Positions 34,583-58,875 of a stretch of 64,000 nt of DNA are shown here, piece after piece. This DNA is from a virus (Duplodnaviria; Caudoviricetes), in IMG/VR virus record IMGVR_UViG_3300033067_002106, positions 1-64,000 of that record. One strand, written 5' to 3'. Numbering within the stretch: the stretch's first letter is position 1; each line of letters starts with the position of its first letter. Both the position numbers and the translations under genes were made by a program. The notes beneath the pieces were generated by a model. That model made no database searches, had not been told where the DNA came from, and saw only the letters and a program-made list of their open reading frames with translations.

Positions 34583-34936
34583 GGGGGATTTACGGTATTG
34601 ACTAGGTATAGTCGTAAATTGTAAGCATGTGGTGCTAAATGGATGCACCATAATCTGTCTATTAAAACACAAACGACAACGATTTTATCGTTTCAGAAAA
34701 TTTCCTTGATGAAGCTGTTTACAGCTTCGCTGGAGAGCTTGCTGTAGCCTAATATAGCGATGGTGGTAAACCACCAAAAACATCTTTTTAGAGTGAGGAT
34801 GTAAAAGAAACTCTGGGTTCATTTGGTTTCCAACATTAAAACCAAAATATTTAGAAGGATTAGAAAATCCTGTTCTAAACATGTAGAAAGCTTTTGAAGA
34901 ATACTTAACACAGCGGTTCGATTCCGCTATCCTCCA
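34583..34936 (+). ncRNA. ssrA: tmRNA
   Basis: 5' GGGGGAT...TTGAC and 3' GCGG-TTCGATT-CCGC-TATCCTCC-A with G3:U70; tag ORF 34669-34752 TNDNDFIVSENFLDEAVYSFAGELAVA*; CCA not encoded. Confidence 0.9.
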
Positions 34937-34983
34937 CGTTACTTTTTTGTACCTAGCACATATTTATATAGAAATGTATAGAT

Positions 34984-36721: not shown

Positions 36722-36805
36722 CGTGGGATGGTGTAACGGCAACATGCTAGGCTCATAACCTAGAGACATCAAATGCAAGTGTAGGTTCGAGTCCTACTCC
36801 CGCAA
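36722..36805 (+). tRNA. Initiator-like tRNA(CAT) with long variable region
   Basis: C1xA72 mismatch, CTAGG-CTCATAA-CCTAG arm, 17-nt variable region. Confidence 0.7.
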
Positions 36806-36851
36806 CAAAGCAAAGGCCCTTAGGGGCCGTTTGCATTTAAAAAAGAAATAT

Positions 36852-38497: not shown

Positions 38498-38568
38498 GGC
38501 TCGGTGGTGTAACGACAACATTTAGGACTCTAAATCCGAAAGATAAGGGTTTGAATCCCTTTCGAGTC
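38498..38568 (+). tRNA. Amber suppressor tRNA(CTA), Gln-like body
   Basis: Cloverleaf; loop CT-CTA-AA (anticodon 38530-38532); own TATCTTTG promoter at 38480; one mismatch in anticodon stem. Confidence 0.75.
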
Positions 38569-38582
38569 TCAAAACCTTGAAA

Positions 38583-40971: not shown

Positions 40972-41042
40972 GTGGGTGTAGCTTAAAGGTAAAGCGATGG
41001 TCTCTAAAACCATTGTTGACAGTTCGATTCTGTTCATCCATA
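40972..41042 (+). tRNA. Amber suppressor tRNA(CTA), Trp-like body
   Basis: ATGGT-CTCTAAA-ACCAT anticodon arm, canonical D and T arms. Confidence 0.8.
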
Positions 41043-41050
41043 CAGATACT

Positions 41051-45132: not shown

Positions 45133-46296
45133 ATGAAAACGTTTATTAAAGAACAACTAAGAAGATTTATTTTAATGGAACAAAGGATTAAATATGATAT
45201 GCATATTCCTGATGATATCTTAGCAATCAAAGACGTTTTTAAAAAGAACGGCTATAAGCTATATGTTGTTGGTGGAGCGGTTCGTGATGCTATCCTAGGC
45301 AAAACACCAAAAGACTTTGACCTAGCAACCGATGCTGTTCCAGACAAGGTTGAAGAAATAATGAAAAATGCTGGATTGAAAACCCTTCCAACCGGAAAAG
45401 CTTTTGGTGTAATAAATGTTTTTACAAATAAAGGTGAATATGAGATAGCTACCTTCCGTGAGGATAGCTCTACTGGTGATGGCCGTAGACCAGACTCAGT
45501 TAGCTTTACAAACATCGAGGGTGACGTTAAACGACGAGATTTGACCATCAACGCCCTTTTCTATGATATAGATACACATGAGGTGGTTGACTTGGTTGGG
45601 GGCGTAAATGACCTTAAAAACGGTGTGGTGAGAACCGTGGGAAGTCCAGAAGAAAGGTTCAACGAAGATAAGCTTAGGATTCTTAGGGCCATCAGATTTG
45701 CTGGTCGGTTTGGTTCTGGTTTGGACCCTGCTGTGGATGCCGCATTAATGAAAGATGCTAGCCTTCAAGGAATATCTGGTGAAAGAATCAGAGATGAATT
45801 CCTTAAGGGTATCAAATCATCCAAATCAGTTGTTCAATTTTTAAGACTTATCGATAAATACAACCTGTTTGACTGGATATTTAGGGGGTTAAAGGTTAAT
45901 AAAGAATTTGTGGAAGACAAGGACCCAATCCTTGTAATAGCTAACCTATTGAAATTCAATGAATCTTCAGTACTCAACAAACAATTAAATGTTTATAAGT
46001 ATACCATTGAAGAAATACGAGCTATTACATTCTTAATCAATCTTTTAAAATTGAGTCCAGAAACAGCTGTTGCACTGAAGAGAGCCCAAAAGATTTCTGG
46101 TGTATCAGATGAACAAATTAGAAAGTTTGGCCATCAGGAAGGGTTGAATTCTAAGCTTTTAGAAGCTTTTTTGAAGTTTAGATTAACTGTAAATGGTGAA
46201 CAACTCATGCAACAGCTTAATATGAAGCCGGGAAAGGAACTTGGTGATGCAATAAATAAGGCTGAATACGATAATTTTAAAAAATTGTTGGGGTAA
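45133..46296 (+). CDS. cca: CCA tRNA nucleotidyltransferase (class II)
   Basis: YVVGGAVRD, DFD, RRDLTINAL, EDKLRILRAIRF. Confidence 0.9.
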   Translation: MKTFIKEQLRRFILMEQRIKYDMHIPDDILAIKDVFKKNGYKLYVVGGAVRDAILGKTPKDFDLATDAVPDKVEEIMKNAGLKTLPTGKAFGVINVFTNKGEYEIATFREDSSTGDGRRPDSVSFTNIEGDVKRRDLTINALFYDIDTHEVVDLVGGVNDLKNGVVRTVGSPEERFNEDKLRILRAIRFAGRFGSGLDPAVDAALMKDASLQGISGERIRDEFLKGIKSSKSVVQFLRLIDKYNLFDWIFRGLKVNKEFVEDKDPILVIANLLKFNESSVLNKQLNVYKYTIEEIRAITFLINLLKLSPETAVALKRAQKISGVSDEQIRKFGHQEGLNSKLLEAFLKFRLTVNGEQLMQQLNMKPGKELGDAINKAEYDNFKKLLG

Positions 46297-47718: not shown

Positions 47719-47815
47719 CATTGTGCATCGCCTAGCCTCTTATTGGCTCTCTAAACCAATTACGAAGCGATTCCCTAACGCAAGGGAGATACGTTAATAA
47801 TAAGAATGTATCACA

Positions 47816-47899
47816 CACCTCGGCTCATTGGCGTGACCAGTCGGTTCCAACCCGATAATGCGTAAGCGTGGTTAAGAGTTCGAATCTCTTCCTTGGTGC
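47816..47899 (+). tRNA. Atypical tRNA(CCA) with long variable arm
   Basis: GTCGG-TTCCAAC-CCGAT arm, AAGAG/CTCTT T arm, mismatched acceptor. Confidence 0.45.
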
Positions 47900-47903
47900 A
47901 AAT

Positions 47904-48073
47904 TGATGAGTGTTGAAAATTAAGGGCCAGAAGGCCCAACGGCAGACATGCCCCTTTGTCTCAGGGGTGGTGATAACGAGATAGATAAACAGTAACGGGT
48001 TGACCACAAGCTTGCAAGCACACATGCTGTTTACCGAATCGCACCGTGGATGGTTCGAATCCTCCCTCATCAG
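47904..48073 (+). tRNA. Expanded 170-nt tRNA-Asp(GTC)-like gene
   Basis: TGATGAG/CTCATCA-G73, CCCCT-TTGTCTC-AGGGG arm, TTCGAAT T loop; hairpin insertions in D and variable regions. Confidence 0.6.
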
Positions 48074-48215
48074 CAAAGTTTGAATGACGTAAACGTGGGA
48101 AAATTTCATTAACTGGGTTCGAATCCTAGGTCTGGGTCTAACCCAGACATTGATAACATATCAAACGATATTTAGTTTACTTGGACAACGTTCTATAAAA
48201 ATCGGAGTCCGTTAT

Positions 48216-48710: not shown

Positions 48711-48801
48711 GGTGTGTGTGGTCCGAGTGGTCGAAGGAATCTGCCTGTGAAGCAGAATGAGATTATATCAAACGTCGTGGGTTCAAATCCCATCATGCAC
48801 C
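48711..48801 (+). tRNA. Type II (long variable arm) tRNA-His(GTG)
   Basis: TCTGC-CTGTGAA-GCAGA, G-1:C73, Tyr/Ser-like D arm, 20-nt variable region. Confidence 0.7.
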
Positions 48802-48846
48802 CTTTAAGATGGTTGTGAGTATACTGTAATCAGAAACTCTCAAATC

Positions 48847-48924
48847 GGTGTCGTAACCCCCCTGTCTGATACACAGGACAAAGGTAATTGGTGGGAGATA
48901 TGGGTTCGAGCCCCATCGACACCA
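48847..48924 (+). tRNA. Rearranged (D-arm-displaced) tRNA-Ile(GAT)-like gene
   Basis: Perfect acceptor, anticodon and T arms; only 7 nt between acceptor and anticodon stem; GTAATTGG follows the anticodon arm. Confidence 0.7.
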
Positions 48925-48931
48925 CAGACAA

Positions 48932-49014
48932 CCTGACGAGGCAGACTGGTTGATGCACCACCCTGATAAGGTGGGTTCGCAAGAACAAGGTGGGTTCGAT
49001 TCTCACCGTCAGGA
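48932..49014 (+). tRNA. Type II tRNA-Ile(GAT)
   Basis: CCACC-CTGATAA-GGTGG, variable hairpin GTTC-GCAA-GAAC. Confidence 0.7.
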
Positions 49015-49016
49015 CA

Positions 49017-49214
49017 ATGAAAATTGAAAAAGCAATTGAGGTATTACATGATGTTGGTGTTGCTAAAAGTACAACATTAGAGATTATGTATGAATTATTA
49101 GAAAATGCAAATAAATATGCCAATAATTCAGAAGCAATCGAAAAGCTTTTAAAAGAAAAGCTTTCAATTGAAGAATTCATCTCGGTTAAAAATCAATTTA
49201 TTTTGGACGCTTAG
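49017..49214 (+). CDS. Hypothetical protein within tRNA array
   Basis: MKIEKAIEV... 65 aa. Confidence 0.55.
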   Translation: MKIEKAIEVLHDVGVAKSTTLEIMYELLENANKYANNSEAIEKLLKEKLSIEEFISVKNQFILDA

Positions 49215-49278
49215 CTCAGTTGGTTAGAGCAGCTGACTCATAATCAGCGGGTCACTGGTTCGAACCCAGTAGTGTCCA
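49205..49278 (+). tRNA. tRNA(CAT), probably Ile2 (lysidine type)
   Basis: Canonical; GCTGA-CTCATAA-TCAGC; sits among Ile tRNAs. Confidence 0.8.
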
Positions 49279-49481
49279 CGGGGATGGGGAGGTTAAATCT
49301 CGCTCGGACAAAACTGAGTAACCCTTAATCGGGGTTCGATTTTATCAAAGACCATCAAAGAGACCTGAAAAAAGAGTAACTAACACAACGGGATGTTGTT
49401 GTAGAAGAAAATTTTCTAACATTGGAGATGAAAACTGGATAAATAGAATAAGCGGGTGAAATTCCCGTCGTCGCCAAACCT

Positions 49482-49572
49482 TGGGTAGTAGCAGCGGTGC
49501 CTTATACGCATCACACTTGTAACTGGCATCTTGAGATAACTTCAAATGTGGGTTCGAACCCCATCTACCCAA
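49482..49572 (+). tRNA. Rearranged tRNA-Ile(TAT)-like gene
   Basis: TGGGTAG/CTACCCA, GGTGC-CTTATAC-GCATC, GTAACTGG after the anticodon arm. Confidence 0.7.
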
Positions 49573-49638
49573 CAATTGGAATCATATTCTTGTTGCCCCG
49601 TTTGGGATATGATATTGAAATTGAGTTACGGGGCCCTT

Positions 49639-49723
49639 GGATGGGTTGCTTTAGAGGCCGAAAAGTCTAGATTGTTAATCTAGTGTCGCAAGACCACCGT
49701 GGGTTCGACTCCCACCCCATCCT
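49639..49723 (+). tRNA. Type II tRNA-Asn(GTT)
   Basis: CTAGA-TTGTTAA-TCTAG, variable hairpin GTC-GCAA-GAC. Confidence 0.75.
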
Positions 49724-49730
49724 CAAATAT

Positions 49731-49804
49731 TCTGATGTAGCTCAGTTGGTTAGAGCATCTGACTGTTAATCAGAGGGTCGTAGGTTCGAGTCCCACCATC
49801 AGAG
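49731..49804 (+). tRNA. tRNA-Asn(GTT)
   Basis: Canonical, G73. Confidence 0.9.
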
Positions 49805-49818
49805 CAAATAAATGTGTT

Positions 49819-50055
49819 ATGGAACTTAAAAGCATTTCAAAAGAGGTTATCGATGAGTACAAAGAATTTATTCTTGAGCGATTAACTATCCGTCCAACTG
49901 ATACTCCAACAGCTATTGCTAGCAGAGCATGGTATCGTGGGTTTAAGGATTTCAGGTTTGATGATGCTAGGGCTTTGGCTGAGAAGGTTAAACAGATTTA
50001 TTTGACACATATCAACAAGAAAACTATTTCTGAAGTTAGAGATATGATTTTTTAA
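49819..50055 (+). CDS. Hypothetical protein within tRNA array
   Basis: 78-aa ORF. Confidence 0.55.
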   Translation: MELKSISKEVIDEYKEFILERLTIRPTDTPTAIASRAWYRGFKDFRFDDARALAEKVKQIYLTHINKKTISEVRDMIF

Positions 50056-50056
50056 C

Positions 50057-50131
50057 GGACAATTAGCTATTAATTGGTAGAGCGAGTGGTTGTTAGCCAC
50101 AGGGTTGTGGGTTCGAATCCTACATTGTCCG
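50057..50131 (+). tRNA. tRNA-Asn(GTT), divergent copy
   Basis: GTGG-TTGTTAG-CCAC arm, G73. Confidence 0.75.
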
Positions 50132-50222
50132 CTTTTTTAGTTCTTTGAAATTATTTTTGTTTTAAAGTTTAAACTTTGGGTATAGTTTCGGTATTTATTA
50201 AATGATAACTTTCGTTTAATAA

Positions 50223-51296
50223 ATGCAACAAACAATGCCACACAACACCAAGGTACTTTTTATCCTAAAAAGAAGACAAGATTATAATGGAGACAAACAT
50301 TCACATGCTAATTTAAGCACTGGGTTATATAATTCAGCGGCTTTTATGAATGATATGTTAAATGAACAAGGTATTCGTTCTAAGATTGCTGTTGTTAGAG
50401 ATAACAATGATATCGATAGACAAGTCACCAAGTTCAAACCAAAATATGTTATTATTGAAGCACTTTGGGTTGTTCCAAGTAAATTCAGTGTTTTATGTAA
50501 GCTACACCCTAATGTAAAATGGATTATTCGTTTACATAGTGAAATTCCATTCTTAGCAAATGAGGGAATAGCAATGGATTGGTTGGGTGATTATCCAGCT
50601 TTTCATAATCTTATTATAGCAGCAAACGCTCCGAGAGCATTAAAAGACCTTAGATTTTATTTAAAGACAAAGTATCATTGGAACGATGAAAAACTTGAGA
50701 AGAAAGTCATCTATCTTCCAAATTATTATCCAGATACTTACAAACGTAAGGAATTTGATGATACCAAATGTCACATTGACATTGGTTGTTTTGGTGCAAT
50801 CAGACCAATGAAAAATCATTTAACTCAAGCAATTGCGGCAATAAAGTTTGCTGAATCTATTGGTAAAAAATTAAGATTTCATATCAATGCTGGAAGGATT
50901 GAACAAAAGGGTGATAGTGTATTGAATAATCTTAAAGCTTTATTTACACAATTAAAGTCTTCTGGTCATCAGTTGATTGACCATGGTTGGATGCCTAGGG
51001 AAGAATTCTTAAAGGTGTGTGGAAAAATGGATATTGGAATGCAAGTTTCAATGTCAGAAACCTTTAATATTGTTGGTGCTGATTTGATGGGCCAAGGTGT
51101 TCCTCTTGTCGGTTCAAATGAAATTCCTTGGATGTGTAAGTTTTTTACTGCTAAACCAACAGATACTGAAAGCATTTATAGAAAACTAAGATTAACTCAT
51201 TGTTTTTCTAAAGTGAATGTTTTCTTAAATCAATTATTCCTGAGAAAATATACAAATAAAACAAGGAAGATATGGGTTAAATACTTCGAAGATTAA
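50223..51296 (+). CDS. Glycosyltransferase (GT-B/GT4-like)
   Basis: IGCFGAIRPMKNH, QVSMSETFNIVGAD. Confidence 0.75.
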   Translation: MQQTMPHNTKVLFILKRRQDYNGDKHSHANLSTGLYNSAAFMNDMLNEQGIRSKIAVVRDNNDIDRQVTKFKPKYVIIEALWVVPSKFSVLCKLHPNVKWIIRLHSEIPFLANEGIAMDWLGDYPAFHNLIIAANAPRALKDLRFYLKTKYHWNDEKLEKKVIYLPNYYPDTYKRKEFDDTKCHIDIGCFGAIRPMKNHLTQAIAAIKFAESIGKKLRFHINAGRIEQKGDSVLNNLKALFTQLKSSGHQLIDHGWMPREEFLKVCGKMDIGMQVSMSETFNIVGADLMGQGVPLVGSNEIPWMCKFFTAKPTDTESIYRKLRLTHCFSKVNVFLNQLFLRKYTNKTRKIWVKYFED

Positions 51297-51313
51297 ATTA
51301 AAACAAAGGTAAC

Positions 51314-51592
51314 ATGAAAAAAAGAAACAAATTAACTATTAATATTACACAATGGAAAAATGGTGTGCTAGACGTATCTGATATTGAATGTGATTCACTA
51401 GATGAAGCAAAAGGATTTATCAGGGGTCTTAAGGGTAAAATGAAGGTTAAGGTTTATGATGGAAATAAAAGAGTTCAACATTCAGAGGACATAGATAATG
51501 AAGATAAACATGAACACCACGAACACCACGAACATCATGGACATCATGAACACCATGGTCATCATGAGCATGATAACGATTCATATTGTTAA
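51314..51592 (+). CDS. Small protein with His-rich C-terminal tail
   Basis: HEHHEHHEHHGHHEHHGHHEHD. Confidence 0.65.
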   Translation: MKKRNKLTINITQWKNGVLDVSDIECDSLDEAKGFIRGLKGKMKVKVYDGNKRVQHSEDIDNEDKHEHHEHHEHHGHHEHHGHHEHDNDSYC

Positions 51593-51704
51593 TATTAGCT
51601 TTCTATTTTTCATTTAAATGCCGATGTATCCAAGTGGCCAAAGCTATATTTGGATAAAATTGGAGTGTATTTCCCTGTGACAATTAGCACAAACTAAAAT
51701 ACAT

Positions 51705-51774
51705 TGCATGAGTTATTGGAATACAGCCATCTCTCATAAGGAAGGCCAAGGCGGTTCGACTCCGCTTCATGCAA
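51705..51774 (+). tRNA. Atypical tRNA(CAT) with reduced D arm
   Basis: TGCATGA/TCATGCA acceptor, GGCGG/CCGCT T arm, CTCATAA loop. Confidence 0.5.
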
Positions 51775-51780
51775 CAACAA

Positions 51781-51859
51781 GCCGATGTAACCAGTTCTGT
51801 CTTCGAAACAGTTATCTGTAATGGAGTTGCAAATGTGGGTTCGAATCCCTCCATCGGTT
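51781..51859 (+). tRNA. Rearranged tRNA-Arg(TCG)-like gene
   Basis: GCCGATG/CATCGGT, CTGT-CTTCGAA-ACAG, GTAATGG after the anticodon arm. Confidence 0.65.
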
Positions 51860-51912
51860 CAACAACACTTATAGAGCCTCTCAATGATGCGCAACTTCTA
51901 TAGGTTTTATTT

Positions 51913-51988
51913 GGCTTTATAGTTTAACTGGATAAAACACCTGATTGCGAATCAGGAGACGTGATGGGTTCGAATCCCTCTAAGGTCA
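51913..51988 (+). tRNA. tRNA-Arg(GCG)
   Basis: CCTGA-TTGCGAA-TCAGG. Confidence 0.8.
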
Positions 51989-52043
51989 CAAATTGTATTA
52001 TGATTGTATTTTTAAAATATGAATGTGTTTATGTTGACCGACT

Positions 52044-52274
52044 ATGTGGGTCAACATCATACAACTTCGTGTAAACGAAAAGCAATCAAAAAAAATTGAT
52101 AGAAGCAAGGTTGAGAAACATAGAAAACACCTTGAAATGGGCGGTGACATGTTTCCAATCGACGTTGTAAAAATCAATGAAGAAGAACACTGTATTTGCG
52201 GCAATGGCAGACACCGTTACTATGGTGCGTTGGAAGCCGGTGTTCAATTTATTGATGTCAATGTACTGAATTAA
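52044..52274 (+). CDS. Small ParB/sulfiredoxin-like domain protein
   Basis: PIDV...GNGRHRY.GA. Confidence 0.6.
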   Translation: MWVNIIQLRVNEKQSKKIDRSKVEKHRKHLEMGGDMFPIDVVKINEEEHCICGNGRHRYYGALEAGVQFIDVNVLN

Positions 52275-52275
52275 T

Positions 52276-52353
52276 GGTCTCGTAGTGTAACAGGATAACA
52301 TAGACGTTTCCTAAACGGCCAGAGTAAGGGTTCGAATCCCTTCGAGACTACCA
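52276..52353 (+). tRNA. tRNA-Arg(CCT)
   Basis: Loop TTCCTAA, encoded CCA. Confidence 0.8.
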
Positions 52354-52358
52354 AATAT

Positions 52359-52447
52359 GCCCCAGTAACCGAGTCGGCCTTCTAAGCTGTTAATCGTAAT
52401 TGGAGTTGAGATTGTATCAAACGCAGGTTCGAATCCTGTCTGGGGTT
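52359..52447 (+). tRNA. Rearranged tRNA-Arg(TCT)-like gene
   Basis: GCCCCAG/CTGGGGT, CGGC-CTTCTAA-GCTG, GTAATTGG after the anticodon arm. Confidence 0.65.
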
Positions 52448-52453
52448 CAAGAT

Positions 52454-52529
52454 GGTTCCATAAGCTAACTGGATAAACTGGCCGCCTTCTAAGCGGCACT
52501 TATGGGTTCGAATCCCGTTGGAACTACCA
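52454..52529 (+). tRNA. tRNA-Arg(TCT)
   Basis: Canonical, encoded CCA. Confidence 0.9.
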
Positions 52530-53044: not shown

Positions 53045-53434
53045 ATGGCATTCATTCCCAATCACTTACATTTGATAGTTAAGGGTAAAATCAACAACCC
53101 ACCTAAAGAAGAAATCGACTTAAATAATTGGTTTATAGAGCTGGTAAAGGGTGTCCGAATGGTAGTAGTGGCGGGTCCGACATCAGTTTACGTAAAAGAT
53201 GAAGGGAATGAGGGGTTAACCGGAACGGTGACACTTGCCACATCTCATGCTTCAATTCATATTTGGGACAATACAATCCCATCTCTTTTTCAATTTGATA
53301 TTTATTCGTGTTCATGTTTTACCGTTGAGGAGGTATTACAACATTTAAACAAATTTGACCTAAGTGAATATGAGTACATATTTATTGATAGAAATAATGA
53401 AATAAAGATTATAGATACTGGGAAAAATCAGTGA
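53045..53434 (+). CDS. speD: S-adenosylmethionine decarboxylase proenzyme-like
   Basis: HLHLIV, GLTGTVTLATSHASIHIW, FDIYSC. Confidence 0.8.
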   Translation: MAFIPNHLHLIVKGKINNPPKEEIDLNNWFIELVKGVRMVVVAGPTSVYVKDEGNEGLTGTVTLATSHASIHIWDNTIPSLFQFDIYSCSCFTVEEVLQHLNKFDLSEYEYIFIDRNNEIKIIDTGKNQ

Positions 53435-54000
53435 AAATTGGTGAAATATATAATGAGATTTTTGAAGAAAGCGGTGAAAGGGTTTTTTACCATGGTTCTC
53501 CATATCAGTTTGACAAATTTGATTTTGATAGAATAGGTAGTGGTGATGGGTTGGCTAAGTTTGGTTATGGGTTGTATTTTACTGATAATCCAGATTTAGC
53601 GATTTATTACGCAAAAGAGCTTTCAAAGGGTGAACTAAAAAAAACAGGATTTAACTTATATACGGTTAAGCTTTACAATTTGGATGAATTTTATGTTTGG
53701 GAGGAAGAAACCCCGGAATTTGTTGCTCAGTGTGTTGTAAGAAAACTTTTAAAACTTGGTAAAACAAGTGATGCTGAATTGATAACTACAGAATATGAAG
53801 AGTATGGTAAATACTGGGAACTAAAAAACATGTATTCAGTCTTAACTGATATTTTAGGAACTCAAAAAGAAACATCTGAATGGTTAACTATTTGTGGTGT
53901 TGGTGGGGTCATAAGTGATGCAATAACACATAGTGGTAAGATATATACCGTTTATGATGATTCATTAATAAAGATTGTCAACGTAGAAAATTTAAGATGA
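53431..54000 (+). CDS. ADP-ribosyltransferase-like fold protein
   Basis: FYHGS...FDKF...GYGLYFT...AIYYA. Confidence 0.6.
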   Translation: MKIGEIYNEIFEESGERVFYHGSPYQFDKFDFDRIGSGDGLAKFGYGLYFTDNPDLAIYYAKELSKGELKKTGFNLYTVKLYNLDEFYVWEEETPEFVAQCVVRKLLKLGKTSDAELITTEYEEYGKYWELKNMYSVLTDILGTQKETSEWLTICGVGGVISDAITHSGKIYTVYDDSLIKIVNVENLR

Positions 54001-55206: not shown

Positions 55207-56139
55207 ATGAAGAACTATATTAGAAAACTATTAAAAGAGAATCTGATGGTAAATGCATTGGGTATTAAGGTTTCACGTCCAAACCAAGTATTGGTTATTA
55301 TGAGGGGTATATCCGGTAGCGGTAAGTCCACAAAGGCTAAATCCATTGTGGGTGAAGGTGTTATACACTCAACAGATGCTTTGATTGAAGCAACTGGTGA
55401 TTACAATGGTTTTTTTGCTGAGATGAACAAAACAAAAAACTTCATTGGGTTAAGCCGTATGCACTCAAAGAACTTAGCCAACGCAAAGAAATCAATGAAT
55501 GAGGGTGTTTCACCTGTTGTTATTGATAACACAAATTTGAAGGCAAATGAAGCTAAGGCTTATGTTAAATATGCTTTGGAATTGGGTTATGCTGATGACA
55601 ATATCAAGATTATTGATGTTGGTACTGGTGGTTTAACAGCTGAAGGGTTGGCTGCAAGAAACCAACATGGTGTTCCATTGGAAAAAATAGAACAAATGGT
55701 TAAGTCACATAAGAGTGTCGGACCACTCACACTTAAAAGGATATTGGAGTCCAAGGATATGTATCCAAACTCTGATATCCTTTATTCAGCGGTTGTTTTG
55801 GATGAAAAATCAAGAAGCAAACTACTTGCAGCGTATGGTAAAAATATTCCTTCCGGTTGGGATGTAATTGCTCATCACATGACAATTGCTTTTGGCAAAC
55901 CAGTAAAGAATGAAGAAGACTTGGGCAAAACCGTATGTCTTAGAGTTACAAAGGTTGGCGCTAGCGATATGGCATATGCTGTTCAGGTTGAAGGATATCC
56001 ATCAAACAACGCTATTCCACATATTACCTTGGCCATCAATCCAGATGGTGGAAAAGCGATGATGTCTAACGACATAACTAATTGGATGTCAACGAAGGGT
56101 ATTGAAGTTTGTGGTGTTGTGACAAATATCAAGAAATAA
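55207..56139 (+). CDS. Polynucleotide kinase (AAA_33) fused to 2H cyclic phosphodiesterase
   Basis: RGISGSGKST, VIDNTN, RNQHGVP; HHMT and PHIT 2H motifs. Confidence 0.85.
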   Translation: MKNYIRKLLKENLMVNALGIKVSRPNQVLVIMRGISGSGKSTKAKSIVGEGVIHSTDALIEATGDYNGFFAEMNKTKNFIGLSRMHSKNLANAKKSMNEGVSPVVIDNTNLKANEAKAYVKYALELGYADDNIKIIDVGTGGLTAEGLAARNQHGVPLEKIEQMVKSHKSVGPLTLKRILESKDMYPNSDILYSAVVLDEKSRSKLLAAYGKNIPSGWDVIAHHMTIAFGKPVKNEEDLGKTVCLRVTKVGASDMAYAVQVEGYPSNNAIPHITLAINPDGGKAMMSNDITNWMSTKGIEVCGVVTNIKK

Positions 56140-56580: not shown

Positions 56581-56609
56581 GCATCAGTAGCTCAGTTGGA
56601 TAGAGCACA
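56581..56609 (+). pseudogene. 5' half of split tRNA-Arg(TCT)
   Basis: GCATCAG-TA-GCTC...GAGC-A; acceptor strand pairs with CTGGTGT at 57156-57162. Confidence 0.8.
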
Positions 56610-56642
56610 TAATTAGTTCTTTGATATATTGGAAAGATTTAG

Positions 56643-56716
56643 GGTCTTGTAGCATAATTGGATAATTCAACTGCCTTCTAAGCAGTAGACTACAGGTTCG
56701 AATCCTGTCGGGACTA
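56643..56716 (+). tRNA. tRNA-Arg(TCT)
   Basis: ACTGC-CTTCTAA-GCAGT, full cloverleaf. Confidence 0.85.
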
Positions 56717-57073
56717 CATTAAATGATGTCTAATTCTGTGGCAATTTGAGCACAGTAAAACACATTTATCTAACTCTTTTGTAATTTGATTCCACGGTCT
56801 TAAACGTAATCTATTCCAGTCAAAATCTTTCTCGGATGGAGTAATATGATGAAAATCAAATATTACATAAGGCATTTCTGGGTAAGTTACCTGACAATCT
56901 ACGCATGAACAACCCTTATATTCAATAGCTTTAATTTTTTGGTTAATCCATCGTTGAATACAATATTTATTGTGACATTTCTTACATTTTGAAGCACCAC
57001 TTTTTCTATCTTTTTGATGATAAAACTCAGATATTGATTTAGTTAAATTACAAACAGTACATATTTTCTCCAT
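56714..57073 (-). CDS. HNH homing endonuclease
   Basis: CTVC...CKKC...CVDC...FDFHH...LLCSNCHRIRH; likely start MEKIC. Confidence 0.85.
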   Translation of the reverse strand: MEKICTVCNLTKSISEFYHQKDRKSGASKCKKCHNKYCIQRWINQKIKAIEYKGCSCVDCQVTYPEMPYVIFDFHHITPSEKDFDWNRLRLRPWNQITKELDKCVLLCSNCHRIRHHLM

Positions 57074-57122
57074 ATTAATAAATATATGGAAAGAAGCCAA
57101 AAATCTATCCAATATATTAAAA

Positions 57123-57166
57123 TTCTAAGTTTGGGGTCATAGGTTCGAATCCTATCTGGTGTACCA
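57123..57166 (+). pseudogene. 3' half of split tRNA-Arg(TCT)
   Basis: T-TCT-AA-GTTTG-GGGTC-ATAGG-TTCGAAT-CCTAT-CTGGTGT-A-CCA. Confidence 0.8.
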
Positions 57167-57431: not shown

Positions 57432-57767
57432 ATGTTGGACCCACGAACATTTGGCGGCTCAAGAGCGGCTGAAGTTTTGGTTGAAAGATTGAAAGCTCAC
57501 GACTCAAAAATGATTAATAAGGTTGGTCATATTTGGGTTTCTTATAGTCAAACTTTTAACGAAATAAAAAAGTTAGACAGCAGGATTTCAATCGGGTTAG
57601 CCAAATTGGTATATCATAATGCAATAGGAAAGGCTGATACCTTTCCTGATGATATTAAAACTTATTTTAAAAACATAATCAGTGCTCGTTATAGGGTTTT
57701 TCTAATTGAAAGGGACGCACACAAACCTTATAAACATAGGGCGGATTATCCGGCAAAACAAAAATAA
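57432..57767 (+). CDS. Hypothetical protein
   Basis: 111-aa ORF. Confidence 0.55.
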   Translation: MLDPRTFGGSRAAEVLVERLKAHDSKMINKVGHIWVSYSQTFNEIKKLDSRISIGLAKLVYHNAIGKADTFPDDIKTYFKNIISARYRVFLIERDAHKPYKHRADYPAKQK

Positions 57768-57768
57768 C

Positions 57769-58875
57769 ATGTTAGCAATAATCAGATACATAAAGACACA
57801 TGGCCTAGCTAAGGCTATTGAAACTTTCAAACTCAAGACTAGAGTCTATGAGAAGAAAATTCTATTGAACTATGACCAAATAGAATCCAATATGTCCTTC
57901 GAGGAAGTTCAAGACTGTCGTGGTCTTATTCTTGAAAGAGATACATGGAAGGTTATGTCCATGTCATTCAGAAAGTTCTTCAACCATGGTGAAGGAAATG
58001 CTGCAACAATTGATTGGAATACCGCACGTGTACTTGAAAAGGTAGACGGAACGATGATTCAACTTTATTGGGATTGGCATAAGAACGAATGGTTTGCGGC
58101 AACAACTGGTATGGCTGAGGCAGAGGGAGAGGTCAATAATATCGAGAAAACTACTTTTAGTTTATTGTTTTGGAACACAGTTAAACTAGACAAAAATAAG
58201 TTGGATAAAGATTTAACCTATGTCTTCGAGCTATGCACACCAGAAAATATTGTTGTAACACCACACACTGAATATAAGGCTATTTTATTAGCGGTTAGAA
58301 ATAAAATTTCACTAAAGGAAATGTCATATTCAGAACTTGAATCCGTTAGTCAAGTATTGTCAATTCCATTGGTCAAGTCAATCGAGATGACATTTACTTC
58401 TGTTGAGGATATAAAGAAGACATTTGAAAATATGCCATTTAGCGAAGAAGGTTATATCATTATTGATGCTAATTTTAATCGTATCAAGATTAAGAATCCA
58501 GCATATGTTGCCGCACATATATTAAAAGGAAAGTCTGGATTTCATCACATCATGGATATTATTAAAACAAATGAAGTTGAGGAATATGTCGCAACATTTC
58601 CAAACAGAAAGGATGAAATCTTGAAACTTAAAGTAAATTACGACAACTTAATAAATCGGTTAACCAATTTGTGGAGTATACTGATAAAAGAAACACCTAA
58701 GAATGATGGTAAAACACAAAAAGGTTACGCTGAATCAGTATTTAAACTTACAAGTGAGCATGGGCTAAAATGTTTTTCGGGTTTGTTCTTTAATTTGGCA
58801 AACGATAAAGTATCAAACATTGATGAGTTTGTCTCTAACTTTGATAATAAGATTCTATATGAACTACTTCGGTAG
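57769..58875 (+). CDS. T4 Rnl1-like RNA ligase
   Basis: DCRGL, FRKFFN, EKVDGT (motif I), FELCTP, EGYII, KIKN. Confidence 0.85.
   Translation: MLAIIRYIKTHGLAKAIETFKLKTRVYEKKILLNYDQIESNMSFEEVQDCRGLILERDTWKVMSMSFRKFFNHGEGNAATIDWNTARVLEKVDGTMIQLYWDWHKNEWFAATTGMAEAEGEVNNIEKTTFSLLFWNTVKLDKNKLDKDLTYVFELCTPENIVVTPHTEYKAILLAVRNKISLKEMSYSELESVSQVLSIPLVKSIEMTFTSVEDIKKTFENMPFSEEGYIIIDANFNRIKIKNPAYVAAHILKGKSGFHHIMDIIKTNEVEEYVATFPNRKDEILKLKVNYDNLINRLTNLWSILIKETPKNDGKTQKGYAESVFKLTSEHGLKCFSGLFFNLANDKVSNIDEFVSNFDNKILYELLR

What the first reader, a model, noticed from the sequence alone, without database searches (positions are those of the whole stretch)
48847..52447. Four tRNA genes with a rearranged architecture: D-loop-like element placed after the anticodon arm
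Seen: Ile-GAT (48847), Ile-TAT (49482), Arg-TCG (51781) and Arg-TCT (52359) share the layout acceptor, TA, 5-6 nt (ACC.. or GCA..), anticodon arm, 5-6 nt, GTAA(N)TGG, variable segment, canonical T arm, acceptor. Acceptor, anticodon and T arms are intact, there is no D arm at the normal position, and GTAA(N)TGG resembles D loops of canonical neighbours (e.g. ATAATTGG in Arg at 56643). In three of four, CC at positions 11-12 could pair with the displaced GG. Four diverged copies with different anticodons argue against decay. Inference: a distinct tRNA or tRNA-mimic fold that could evade shape-reading nucleases or act as a decoy.
Basis: partly seen in the sequence, partly recalled or inferred. 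Interest (0 to 1): 0.85.

Follow-up and report, generated by a model that had tools for sequence, protein, structure and literature searches.

The report
Phage tRNAs with a re-threaded D-arm
Four genes in this giant-phage fragment are very probably working isoleucine and arginine tRNAs in which half of the D-arm has moved to the far side of the anticodon arm, a non-cloverleaf layout that many phages share, that gene finders miss and that I found in no paper.

Summary
At 48847-48924 (Ile GAU), 49482-49572 (Ile UAU), 51781-51859 (Arg UCG) and 52359-52447 (Arg UCU) lie four tRNA-like genes. Each has an intact acceptor, anticodon and T arm, no D hairpin at the usual place, and a UAA(N)UGG D-loop-like block after the anticodon arm. 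ARAGORN calls none of them, and Rfam's tRNA model reaches its threshold for only one.

They are not decay. I collected 116 distinct relatives, mostly from IMG/VR phage tRNA arrays, and all their stems covary. The D arm is re-threaded, not lost. Two base pairs form in 116 of 116 relatives, one of them with four pair types. These pairs join the nucleotides 4 and 3 before the anticodon stem to the two nucleotides before the U-A-A of the displaced block, which is the spacing of canonical pairs 23:12 and 24:11.

All 91 arginine members have A after the GG (the A20 position). All 19 Ile/Met members have discriminator A. Of 82 members, 54 encode CCA. In large arrays they fill an anticodon slot that is otherwise empty.

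Best reading: real decoding tRNAs with a permuted D domain. Charging, the L shape and any advantage, including nuclease evasion, are untested. This scan has found the same class before on other DNA, and one earlier check reported that part of that claim fell; I could not see which part.

The parts
48847..48924 (+). Rewired tRNA-Ile(GAU), 78 nt, subclass B (5-nt 5' segment). Acceptor 48847-48853 / 48917-48923. U8 A9 48854-48855. 5' segment ACCCC 48856-48860 (plays positions 22-26). Anticodon arm 48861-48877, anticodon 48868-48870. Linker 48878-48882. GG 48883-48884 (plays 11-12). U 48885 (13). AAUUGG 48886-48891 (14-19). U 48892 (position 20). Connector 48893-48899. T arm 48900-48916. Discriminator A 48924. 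No encoded CCA.
   Evidence: Sequence. R2 81.2 bits, R1 51.2 bits. Not called by ARAGORN or Rfam. Relatives L094:6221-6298 (82% identical) and L072:537-613 (81%) have compensatory acceptor-stem changes. Lies 7 nt upstream of a cloverleaf tRNA-Ile(GAU).
49482..49572 (+). Rewired tRNA-Ile(UAU), 91 nt, subclass B. 5' segment GCAGC 49491-49495. Anticodon arm 49496-49512, anticodon 49503-49505. UG-U-AACUGG-C 49518-49527. Connector of 20 nt with an extra hairpin UUGA-GAUAACU-UCAA at 49531-49545. T arm 49548-49564. Discriminator A 49572. It is the only UAU-anticodon gene called in the window.
   Evidence: R2 54.2 bits, R1 30.0 bits. Its rebuilt helix reads C:G, A:U, G.U where most relatives read C:G, C:G, a compensatory change. 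Relative L044:4368-4457 reads C:G, G:C, U:A. Hairpin found by constrained fold. AUA is 30% of Ile codons in the window's ORFs.
51781..51859 (+). Rewired tRNA-Arg(UCG), 79 nt, subclass A (6-nt 5' segment ACCAGU). Anticodon arm 51796-51812, anticodon 51803-51805. Bulge UA 51813-51814. UCUG 51815-51818. U-AAUGG-A 51819-51825. Connector GUUGCAAAU 51826-51834. T arm 51835-51851. Discriminator U 51859.
   Evidence: Rfam tRNA 30.7 bits with the D arm deleted. R1 89.8 bits. Rebuilt helix C12:G38, A13:U37, G14:C36. Relatives L094:6919-6996 (94%) and L069:5612-5690 (90%); the latter has a compensatory anticodon-stem change.
52359..52447 (+). Rewired tRNA-Arg(UCU), 89 nt, subclass A (ACCGAG). Anticodon arm 52374-52390, anticodon 52381-52383. 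Bulge UA. AUCG-U-AAUUGG-A 52393-52404. Connector of 18 nt with an extra hairpin UUGA-GAUUGUA-UCAA at 52406-52420. T arm 52423-52439. Discriminator U 52447. It sits 5 nt after cloverleaf tRNA-Arg(CCU) and 6 nt before cloverleaf tRNA-Arg(UCU).
   Evidence: Rfam tRNA 28.5 bits. R1 75.6 bits. Rebuilt helix C12:G38, G13:C37, A14:U36. Spacers. AGA is 54% of Arg codons in the window's ORFs.

Best explanation
The four genes encode working elongator tRNAs, two for isoleucine (GAU, UAU) and two for arginine (UCG, UCU). They belong to a conserved, mainly phage-borne class in which the inner part of the tRNA is permuted.

In a cloverleaf the chain runs 8-9, D-stem 5' strand (10-13), D loop (14-21), D-stem 3' strand (22-25), 26, anticodon arm (27-43), variable region, T arm. 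Here it runs 8-9, then a strand that plays 22-26, then the anticodon arm, a 2-4 nt linker, a strand that plays 10-13, a D loop (A14 A15 U U G18 G19 and position 20), a connector that plays the variable region, and the T arm.

Shown here:
- The D-type helix re-forms around the base of the anticodon arm.
- It lies at the canonical distance from that arm and from the D loop.

Inferred:
- The molecule can still stack ten layers from D stem to anticodon loop.
- It can present G18 G19 to the T loop and fold into an L.
- It is cut out of the tRNA operon transcript like its neighbours and given CCA, in this phage probably by the phage's own CCA-adding enzyme.
- It is charged by the host ArgRS and IleRS and used on the ribosome. 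AGA and AUA are frequent codons in this phage.

The layout is what a duplication of block 10-43 followed by two deletions would give (inference). Why it persists is unknown. It may be neutral once it has arisen, or it may give an advantage against enzymes that read the tRNA core.
For: 1. The genes are real and under selection.
- A pattern scan of IMG/VR gave 93 loci with 82 distinct elements that have at least 6 of 7 acceptor pairs and at least 4 of 5 T-stem pairs. In 54 of the 82, CCA follows the discriminator.
- A covariance model then found 127 members (113 distinct) in those loci. Of the distinct ones, 31 do not fit the search pattern.
- Acceptor, anticodon and T stems are 90-100% paired, with hundreds of double changes. 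No shuffle out of 500 reaches the observed score, and partners slid by one to three columns fall to about 40% paired.

2. The D helix is rebuilt.
- I counted positions from the anticodon stem on one side and from the U before A-A/G on the other, in 116 distinct members.
- Pair 23':12' forms in 116 of 116 (CG 113, GC 1, UA 1, AU 1).
- Pair 24':11' forms in 116 of 116 (CG 51, GC 49, AU 14, UA 2). The shuffle mean is 51.7, and 0 of 5000 shuffles reach the observed count. This is the highest mutual information among the 406 pairs of 29 chosen core, connector and junction positions (1.52 bits).
- Pair 25':10' forms in 55 of 116, against 27.8 for shuffles.
- All four window genes form at least three such pairs.

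3. Tertiary marks are kept.
- Among the columns the first search did not fix, G18 G19 are in 116 of the 117 distinct sequences parsed, and the 31 members outside the search pattern all keep U8 A9 and the U-A after the rebuilt helix; the TTCGA T loop was fixed by that search.
- The position-15 and position-48 equivalents read A/U in 108 members, G/C in 4, G/G in 2, A/A in 1 and A/C in 1 (the UCU gene, 52359-52447). There is no G/U. This follows the rule of the canonical 15:48 pair.

4. Identity marks match the anticodon.
- A follows the GG in 91 of 91 Arg members. U or C follows it in 19 of 19 Ile/Met members.
- The discriminator is A in 19 of 19 Ile/Met members.
- From my own knowledge, A20 is the hallmark ArgRS determinant and A73 the usual Ile/Met discriminator.

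5. They are used as the tRNA.
- Only 10 of 127 members have a cloverleaf tRNA with the same anticodon in the locus.
- In loci with 15 or more cloverleaf tRNAs, none of 18 does.
- 61 of 124 lie within 20 nt of a neighbouring tRNA. In the window the spacers are 5-7 nt.

6. Context in this phage.
- AGA is 54% of Arg codons and AUA 30% of Ile codons in the window's ORFs.
- A CCA-adding enzyme lies at 45133-46296.
Against: - There is no experimental evidence for transcription, processing, CCA addition, charging or decoding, here or in any paper I could find.
- The rebuilt helix is short. It has two firm pairs, a third that forms in about half of the members, and a 22':13' position that is not a consistent pair.
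- Part of the invariance in the first alignments was imposed by my own search pattern (TAACC, GTAA, TGG, GGTTCGA).
- Free-energy folding alone does not recover the proposed fold. The z-scores are only -0.9 to -2.0.
- The UCU gene breaks the 15:48 rule (A/C), and the UCG gene has a U.U in its T stem.
- In this window two of the four (GAU, UCU) have cloverleaf twins next door, so they are not strictly needed for decoding.
- An earlier check of the same claim on other DNA reported that part of it fell. I could not see which part.
Confidence: 0.8

Rival explanations
1. These are truly D-armless tRNAs of the mitochondrial kind. A floppy connector replaces the D arm, the long segment after the anticodon arm is just an enlarged variable loop, and there is no rebuilt helix and no elbow contact.
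For: Rfam aligns two of them this way, with the D arm deleted and a large insert in the variable region. Bacterial translation can use a D-armless tRNA (PMC11551756).
Against: Two positions of the 5' connector pair with two positions of the 3' segment in 116 of 116 members, with four pair types at one of them. The invariant UAA(N)UGG is identical to the D loop of cloverleaf tRNA-Arg genes in the same phage. A20-type and 15:48-type regularities are kept. Mitochondrial D-armless tRNAs have none of these.
Confidence: 0.06
2. These are tRNA mimics or decoys that are not used in translation. They would soak up a host anticodon nuclease, a toxin or a modification enzyme, or serve some other RNA role.
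For: In this window the GAU and UCU genes sit next to cloverleaf tRNAs with the same anticodons. The phage also carries an RNA repair kit: a kinase, a T4 Rnl1-type ligase and a CCA-adding enzyme. That suggests pressure on its tRNAs.
Against: Across the family the rewired gene is normally the only one for its anticodon (117 of 127). In large arrays it fills the missing Arg(ACG), Arg(UCU) or Ile(GAU) slot. Acceptor stems, the discriminator, the A20 position and the encoded CCA (54 of 82) are kept as in chargeable tRNAs.
Confidence: 0.08
3. These are decaying tRNA pseudogenes or chance look-alikes.
For: Gene finders reject them. The window holds other broken tRNA-like pieces.
Against: There are four intact copies here and more than a hundred distinct relatives with compensatory changes in every stem. 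The motif is found only at these four places in the record.
Confidence: 0.01

Closest known systems
Canonical class I bacterial and phage tRNA-Arg and tRNA-Ile (Rfam RF00005), for example this window's tRNA-Arg(UCU) at 52454-52529 and 56643-56717 and tRNA-Ile(GAU) at 48932-49015
   Same: 7-bp acceptor stem, U8 A9, a 5-bp anticodon stem with a U33 and A37 loop, the D-loop string U-AAUUGG-A, a GTTCGA T loop with a 5-bp stem, A at the position-20 equivalent for Arg, discriminator A for Ile, and a place inside tightly packed tRNA operons.
   Different: Chain order. The block made of the D-stem 5' strand plus the D loop lies 3' of the anticodon arm instead of 5' of it. There is therefore no D hairpin, and the secondary structure is not a cloverleaf. 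The rebuilt D helix has 2-3 firm pairs. The variable region is replaced by a 7-9 nt connector (18-20 nt in two of the four genes here).
Mitochondrial D-armless tRNAs, such as animal mt tRNA-Ser(AGY) and nematode or Enoplea minimal tRNAs (reviewed in PMC7609411)
   Same: No D hairpin between position 9 and the anticodon stem. Standard finders miss them.
   Different: The mitochondrial forms have lost the D stem, the D loop and the G18 G19 elbow contacts, and they are shortened. The phage class keeps all of these elements, relocated, and is full-length or longer (76-91 nt).
Circularly permuted tRNA genes of Cyanidioschyzon merolae and other algae (PMC3978253)
   Same: tRNA parts appear in a non-standard order in the gene. 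A duplication-then-deletion origin is plausible for both.
   Different: In the algae the 3' half precedes the 5' half, and processing through a circular intermediate restores a normal cloverleaf. Here the outer ends are normal and only the inner block 10-43 is permuted. No known processing could restore the standard order, so the mature RNA itself must be permuted.
allo-tRNAs and other tRNAs with 8/4 or 9/3 acceptor-T branches (PMC5389517)
   Same: Natural non-standard tRNA designs found by mining genomes and metagenomes, some of them in phages.
   Different: Those are still cloverleaves with shifted stem lengths. The present class changes the order of the elements along the chain.
Class II tRNAs with a long variable arm (Leu, Ser, Tyr)
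   Same: The UAU and UCU genes carry an extra hairpin just before the T arm, where a long variable arm would sit.
   Different: The hairpin is a sequence-conserved module (UUGA, a 7-nt loop starting GAU, UCAA). It occurs on Ile, Arg and His tRNAs, which are normally class I.

Membership tests
tRNA (Rfam RF00005, cloverleaf) | 7-bp acceptor stem closed by the two ends of the molecule, plus a discriminator | tested here: met
   All four have 7 of 7 standard pairs, counting G.U. Across the family, 97-100% of cells pair, with covariation at all seven pairs.
tRNA (Rfam RF00005, cloverleaf) | Anticodon arm: 5-bp stem and a 7-nt loop with U33 and a purine at 37 | tested here: met
   The loops are CUGAUAC, CUUAUAC, CUUCGAA and CUUCUAA. 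The Ile genes have 5 of 5 stem pairs. The Arg genes have 4 of 5, with a U.U at the first pair, as in about a third of subclass A.
tRNA (Rfam RF00005, cloverleaf) | T arm: 5-bp stem and a GTTCRANNC loop | tested here: met
   GGTTCGA is present in all four. The T stems have 5, 5, 4 and 5 of 5 pairs.
tRNA (Rfam RF00005, cloverleaf) | D arm as a hairpin between positions 9 and 26 | tested here: not met
   Only 5-6 nt lie between A9 and the anticodon stem. Rfam deletes the 15 D-arm positions.
tRNA (Rfam RF00005, cloverleaf) | Score at or above Rfam's gathering threshold (29 bits) | tested here: inconclusive
   30.7 bits for the UCG gene and 28.5 for the UCU gene. The two Ile genes give no match at E up to 10.
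tRNA (functional definition) | Aminoacylated and used in decoding | not testable with these tools
   Indirect evidence only: identity marks, encoded CCA in 54 of 82 relatives, and slot-filling in arrays.
Rewired-D-domain phage tRNA class (defined here by models R1 and R2) | Pairs between the nucleotides 4 and 3 before the anticodon stem and the two nucleotides before U-A-A/G | tested here: met
   116 of 116 members for both pairs. All four window genes form them.
Rewired-D-domain phage tRNA class (defined here by models R1 and R2) | U-A-R-(0-3 nt)-G-G block after the anticodon arm, followed by A (Arg) or a pyrimidine (Ile, Met) | tested here: met
   The four genes read UAAUUGG-U, UAACUGG-C, UAAUGG-A and UAAUUGG-A.
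Mitochondrial-type D-armless tRNA | D stem, D loop and G18 G19 lost, with an unpaired replacement connector | tested here: not met
   The helix and the GG block are present and conserved.
Circularly permuted tRNA gene (C. merolae type) | The 3' half is encoded upstream of the 5' half, and the acceptor strands are adjacent in the middle of the gene | tested here: not met
   The acceptor strands are at the two ends of each gene.

The most novel reading that the evidence does not exclude
The permuted core is an adaptive scaffold, not a neutral oddity. It keeps every surface that ArgRS, IleRS, MetRS, EF-Tu and the ribosome need, but changes the chain threading of the D domain. Phage tRNAs would thereby escape host defence nucleases or toxins that read the tRNA core, or a phage enzyme that destroys host tRNAs. 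This giant phage hedges by offering the same anticodon on several scaffolds. A corollary is that nature already has a second, non-cloverleaf solution to the L-shaped adaptor, one that radiated among the identities set mainly by the anticodon (Arg, Ile, Met).
Probability: 0.2. Interest if true: 0.95.

Novelty: new variant of a known kind. Interest (0 to 1): 0.85.

Why it matters
[quoted passage not shown] If these RNAs are charged and decode, they are a natural adaptor for bacterial ribosomes in which the chain passes through the tRNA core in a different order. That would have several consequences.

- The cloverleaf would not be the only way to build the L shape, which bears on how tRNA evolved.
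- Phage tRNA counts and codon-supply analyses would be biased, because ARAGORN and Rfam miss the class. Cultured phages such as XacN1 carry unannotated copies.
- It would offer a ready-made candidate for orthogonal tRNA scaffolds.
- It would give a concrete test of whether phage tRNA diversity is shaped by tRNA-targeting defence.

For this window in particular, four such genes sit beside cloverleaf twins and an RNA repair kit, which makes it a good natural experiment.

Tried and rejected
- **Free-energy folding.** The minimum-energy structures do not give a tRNA-like fold, and the z-scores are weak. It is not informative for short, tertiary-structured RNAs.
Rejected. The covarying partners are the two nucleotides before U-A-A.
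- **A fourth pair, 22':13'.** Not supported. The pairs seen are C/U 54, A/U 42, U/U 17 and G/U 3.
- **Pair 15:35 in subclass A.** Weak, with 15 of 43 paired.
- **BLAST of the GAU gene against cultured phages.** No match. BLAST of the UCG gene gave only three matches. BLAST is too insensitive for 80-nt RNAs, and the covariance models were needed.
- **Second IMG/VR scan with GTAA(0-2)TGGT(5-24)GGTTCGA.** It gave 114 matches, but my structural filter passed only 9 and only about 3-4 of those are new members (L235, L285, L323). The rest are chance hits or lie at locus edges.
- **Scan of bacterial genomes.** Most of the first 120 hits are chance: a conserved Nostoc region, and D loops of neighbouring tRNAs. 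About 13 are true members, and most of them lie inside arrays of 10-20 tRNAs per 8 kb. So the class is mainly, but not strictly, phage-borne. I did not test whether those arrays are prophages.
- **Phage-encoded ArgRS or IleRS.** None in the 82.8-kb record. The record is only about 23% complete, so this says little.
- **More members in the window.** None. The CAU-loop element at 51706-51776 scores only 14-16 bits.
- **Literature.** Six full-text searches and two papers read turned up no description of this layout. Subscription journals are not covered.

Full report
**Setting.** The window is the first 64 kb of an 82,835-base IMG/VR virus record that CheckV rates about 23% complete, so it is a fragment of a very large phage. 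Its GC content is 34%. No close relative exists among 50,697 GenBank phage records. Between 34.5 and 57 kb lies a tRNA region where ARAGORN tRNAs and a tmRNA. The T-arm motif GGTTCGANNCC occurs 49 times in the window, against 4.8 expected by chance.

**The observation.**
- Each has a 7-bp acceptor stem, U8 A9 and then only 5-6 nt.
- A normal anticodon arm follows, with anticodons GAU, UAU, UCG and UCU.
- Then come 5-7 nt, the block G-UAA(N)UGG, a connector, a normal T arm and the 3' acceptor strand.
- ARAGORN calls none of them.
- Rfam's tRNA model matches two, at 30.7 and 28.5 bits against a threshold of 29. It does so by deleting the whole D arm and inserting 19 or 29 nt before the T arm. 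It does not match the two Ile genes.
- The motif occurs nowhere else in the record.

**Are they real?** I scanned IMG/VR with a pattern taken from three of the four genes: TAACC, 25 nt, GTAA, 0-2 nt, TGG, 6-36 nt, GGTTCGA.
- The scan returned 93 loci.
- About 90 of 100 matches have a perfect or near-perfect acceptor stem and T stem around them, neither of which the pattern specified. That gives 82 distinct elements, and 54 of them have CCA right after the discriminator.
- Their anticodons are ACG, UCU, UCG, GCG and CCU (Arg) and GAU (Ile).
- Two covariance models were built from these. Model R2, run over the same loci, found 127 members, 113 of them distinct. Of the distinct ones, 31 do not fit the pattern. 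They add UAU, CAU and CCG anticodons.
- On MAFFT alignments of the two subclasses, acceptor, anticodon and T stems are 90-100% paired with abundant double changes. No shuffle out of 500 reaches the observed covariation. Sliding the partners by one to three columns drops pairing to about 40%.
- The closest relatives of the window's own genes in other contigs (76-94% identical) show compensatory changes in acceptor and anticodon stems.

Decay and chance are excluded.

**The D arm is re-threaded, not lost.** The family splits into two subclasses. Subclass A has a 6-nt 5' segment and includes the two Arg genes here. Subclass B has a 5-nt segment and includes the two Ile genes here.

To compare them I counted positions from fixed landmarks: backwards from the first pair of the anticodon stem, and backwards from the U that precedes the A-A/G of the displaced block. 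In 116 distinct members:
- The nucleotide 4 before the stem pairs with the nucleotide 1 before that U in 116 of 116. The pairs are CG 113, GC 1, UA 1 and AU 1.
- The nucleotide 3 before the stem pairs with the nucleotide 2 before the U in 116 of 116. The pairs are CG 51, GC 49, AU 14 and UA 2. The shuffle mean is 51.7, and 0 of 5000 shuffles reach 116.
- The next pair inward forms in 55 of 116, against 27.8 for shuffles.
- Neighbouring registers pair in only 2-59% of members.

The second pair has the highest mutual information among the 406 pairs of 29 chosen core, connector and junction positions I scored, 1.52 bits.

In a cloverleaf, positions 23 and 24 lie 4 and 3 nt before position 27, and positions 12 and 11 lie 2 and 3 nt before A14. 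The spacing on both strands is therefore exactly canonical. The 5' segment plays positions 22-26. The segment after the anticodon arm plays 10-13. It is followed by A14, A15, U, U, G18, G19 and a position-20 nucleotide.

The cloverleaf tRNA-Arg genes of this same phage read U-AAUUGG-A or U-AACUGG-A at 13-20, the same strings.

With this mapping the stack from the top of the D-type helix to the anticodon loop has ten layers, as in a cloverleaf (4 + 1 + 5). This follows from the counts and was not measured.

**Tertiary and identity marks.** The first search pattern fixed U8 A9, the G-U-A-A start of the displaced block, the first G of the GG and the GGTTCGA T loop, so their invariance in that set says little. 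The 31 members found outside the pattern, and the UAU gene here, keep them as well, and the GG is present in 116 of the 117 distinct sequences parsed.
- The equivalents of positions 15 and 48 (the second nucleotide after the U, and the last nucleotide before the T stem) read A/U in 108 members, G/C in 4, G/G in 2, A/A in 1 and A/C in 1. They never read G/U. This is the known rule for the 15:48 pair. The UCU gene in the window is the A/C exception.
- The nucleotide after the GG is A in all 91 Arg members and U or C in all 19 Ile/Met members. The discriminator is A in all 19 Ile/Met members and A, G or U in Arg.

From my own knowledge, A20 is the main ArgRS determinant outside the anticodon, and A73 is the usual Ile and Met discriminator. 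I also recall that all ACG members keeping the loop CUACGAA matches the loop that the A34 deaminase TadA needs.

These regularities are what one expects if the displaced block acts as a real D loop and the RNAs are charged by the cognate enzymes.

**Used as the tRNA.**
- In the 93 loci, ARAGORN overlaps only 7 of the 127 members.
- Only 10 members have a cloverleaf tRNA with the same anticodon in the locus.
- In loci with 15 or more cloverleaf tRNAs, none of 18 members has such a twin.
- Half of the members lie within 20 nt of a neighbouring tRNA.
- The true members found in bacterial assemblies mostly lie in arrays of 10-20 tRNAs that lack the corresponding cloverleaf gene.
- Cultured phages of Xanthomonas (XacN1, Xoo-sp13, BUDD), Stenotrophomonas, Rhizobium, Microbacterium, Maribacter and Pseudomonas gave BLAST matches, in unannotated DNA or under a 'hypothetical protein'. 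In XacN1 the gene scores 85.6 bits and sits in an unannotated gap. The other cultured-phage matches are BLAST hits that I did not confirm with the models.

**This phage.**
- The GAU gene lies 7 nt before a cloverleaf tRNA-Ile(GAU). The UCU gene lies 5 nt after tRNA-Arg(CCU) and 6 nt before tRNA-Arg(UCU). These two are therefore redundant with cloverleaf genes.
- The UAU and UCG genes are the only genes for their anticodons in the window.
- AGA is 54% of Arg codons and AUA 30% of Ile codons in the window's ORFs.
- None of the four encodes CCA. A CCA-adding enzyme lies at 45133-46296.
- A kinase with a weak phosphodiesterase match (55207-56139) and a T4 Rnl1-type RNA ligase (57706-58875) are also present. 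From my own knowledge this pair repairs anticodon-nuclease damage in T4.
- The UAU and UCU genes carry an extra hairpin in the connector: UUGA, a 7-nt loop starting GAU, then UCAA. That is where a variable arm would sit, which fits the mapping of the connector to the variable region.
- The same module is in two related Ile(UAU) genes elsewhere and in the long arm of the cloverleaf tRNA-His at 48712-48802.

**How it most likely works.**
- Shown: conserved genes, standard stems, a rebuilt D-type helix at canonical spacing, and D-loop and identity regularities.
- Inferred: an L-shaped fold. The three new chain joins (9 to 22, 43 through a 2-4 nt linker to 10, and 20/21 through the connector to 49) link nucleotides that are neighbours in the known tRNA core. 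From my own knowledge of yeast tRNA-Phe, 9 contacts the 12:23 pair, 44-45 contact 26 and the 10:25 pair, and 21 and 46-48 contact the 8:14, 13:22 and 15 positions.
- Inferred: processing with the neighbouring tRNAs, CCA addition, charging by the host ArgRS and IleRS, and decoding.
- Inferred origin: duplication of block 10-43 followed by loss of the first 10-21 and the second 22-43.
- Speculative: the restriction to Arg, Ile and Met/Ile2 anticodons may reflect identities that are set mostly by the anticodon. One rare scaffold could then have spread by anticodon change plus the A20 and A73 marks.

**Comparison with what is known, and novelty.** The class works like an ordinary elongator tRNA but fails one defining feature of the cloverleaf, the D hairpin.
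- It is not a mitochondrial-type D-armless tRNA, because the D elements are kept.
- It is not a circularly permuted gene of the algal kind, because its outer ends are normal.
- Six full-text searches and two papers found no description of it. A 2020 review of non-canonical tRNAs does not mention phages, and a 2024 paper states that all known bacterial tRNAs are cloverleaves.

I rate it a new variant of a known kind.

**Earlier notes of this scan.** They describe the same class on many other genomes and reach the same reading. I had reached the strand-swap idea before reading them and tested it independently here. One note says that a later check of the same claim on other DNA made part of it fall, without saying which part. 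My firm claims are therefore limited to what the counts above show.

**Open points.** The selective advantage, if any, is unknown. A covariation inside the connector, U/A against G/G at positions -7 and -3 from the T stem, is unexplained, and so is the role of the extra hairpin.

Noticed in passing
45133-46296, 55207-56139, 57706-58875: A CCA-adding enzyme (PolyA_pol head domain, E 6e-40), a P-loop kinase with a weak tRNA-ligase phosphodiesterase match, and a T4 Rnl1-type RNA ligase flank the tRNA region. Together they look like a tRNA end-repair and anticodon-loop repair kit.
   Followed up: partly
36722-36806, 48712-48802, 48932-49015, 49639-49724: Cloverleaf tRNAs for Met, His, Ile(GAU) and Asn are 84-91 nt long because they carry an extra arm before the T arm, although these are normally short-variable-loop tRNAs. 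Two hairpin types occur: a GCAA tetraloop (Ile, Asn), and the UGA-GAUUAUA-UCA module (His) also seen in the rewired UAU and UCU genes.
   Followed up: partly
L010:8243-8337, L027:10774-10865, L018:4443-4535, L035:1891-1984, L049:3568-3658, L061:761-851 and others: Many phage arrays carry a 91-95 nt tRNA-Ile(UAU) that ARAGORN calls. Most of those I looked at have an ordinary D arm, and all have a long variable arm whose loop reads NAGAUWR. This is a recurrent, sequence-conserved feature that I did not find explained.
   Followed up: no
51706-51776: A tRNA-like element with a 7-bp acceptor stem, a T arm and a CUCAUAA loop. Its D region (UAUUGGAAUA) cannot form a workable stem and its anticodon stem has a mismatch. 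No tool calls it, and R1 and R2 give only 14-16 bits.
   Followed up: partly
47827-47898, 47903-48075, 48080-48140: Further uncalled pieces with T-arm motifs. One is an element of about 170 nt whose ends pair like an acceptor stem (UGAUGAG / CUCAUCA) around a long insert. Another is a lone T arm followed by a terminator-like hairpin.
   Followed up: no
56581-57166: Sequences that look like the 5' part (56581-56609) and the 3' part ending in CCA (57120-57166) of a tRNA lie on either side of an intact tRNA-Arg(UCU) (56643-56717) and a minus-strand ORF (56714-57112). I did not check that ORF myself.
   Followed up: no
38498-38570, 40972-41043, 34583-34937: Two CUA-anticodon (amber suppressor type) tRNAs and a tmRNA gene are encoded by the phage.
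   Followed up: no
family alignment A5 (connector before the T stem); in the window e.g. 51828 and 51832: Inside the connector, the nucleotides 7 and 3 before the T stem covary as U/A (82 members) or G/G (18 members), with mutual information 0.92 bits. The i, i+4 spacing recalls the reverse-Hoogsteen pair of T-loop motifs. This is untested.
   Followed up: partly
L218:1196-1272 (Xanthomonas phage XacN1, AP018399.1 about 47,790-47,866): A cultured jumbo phage carries a rewired tRNA-Arg(ACG) (85.6 bits with R2) in a gap with no annotation, between two predicted ORFs. The records of several other cultured phages also leave their BLAST matches unannotated.
   Followed up: yes
53431-54000; 51868-51905: An ORF with an ADP-ribosyltransferase (ART-PolyVal) match lies next to the tRNA region. 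There is also a weak abiF-RNA-like match (18.5 bits, E = 2, below threshold) between the UCG gene and tRNA-Arg(GCG).
   Followed up: no
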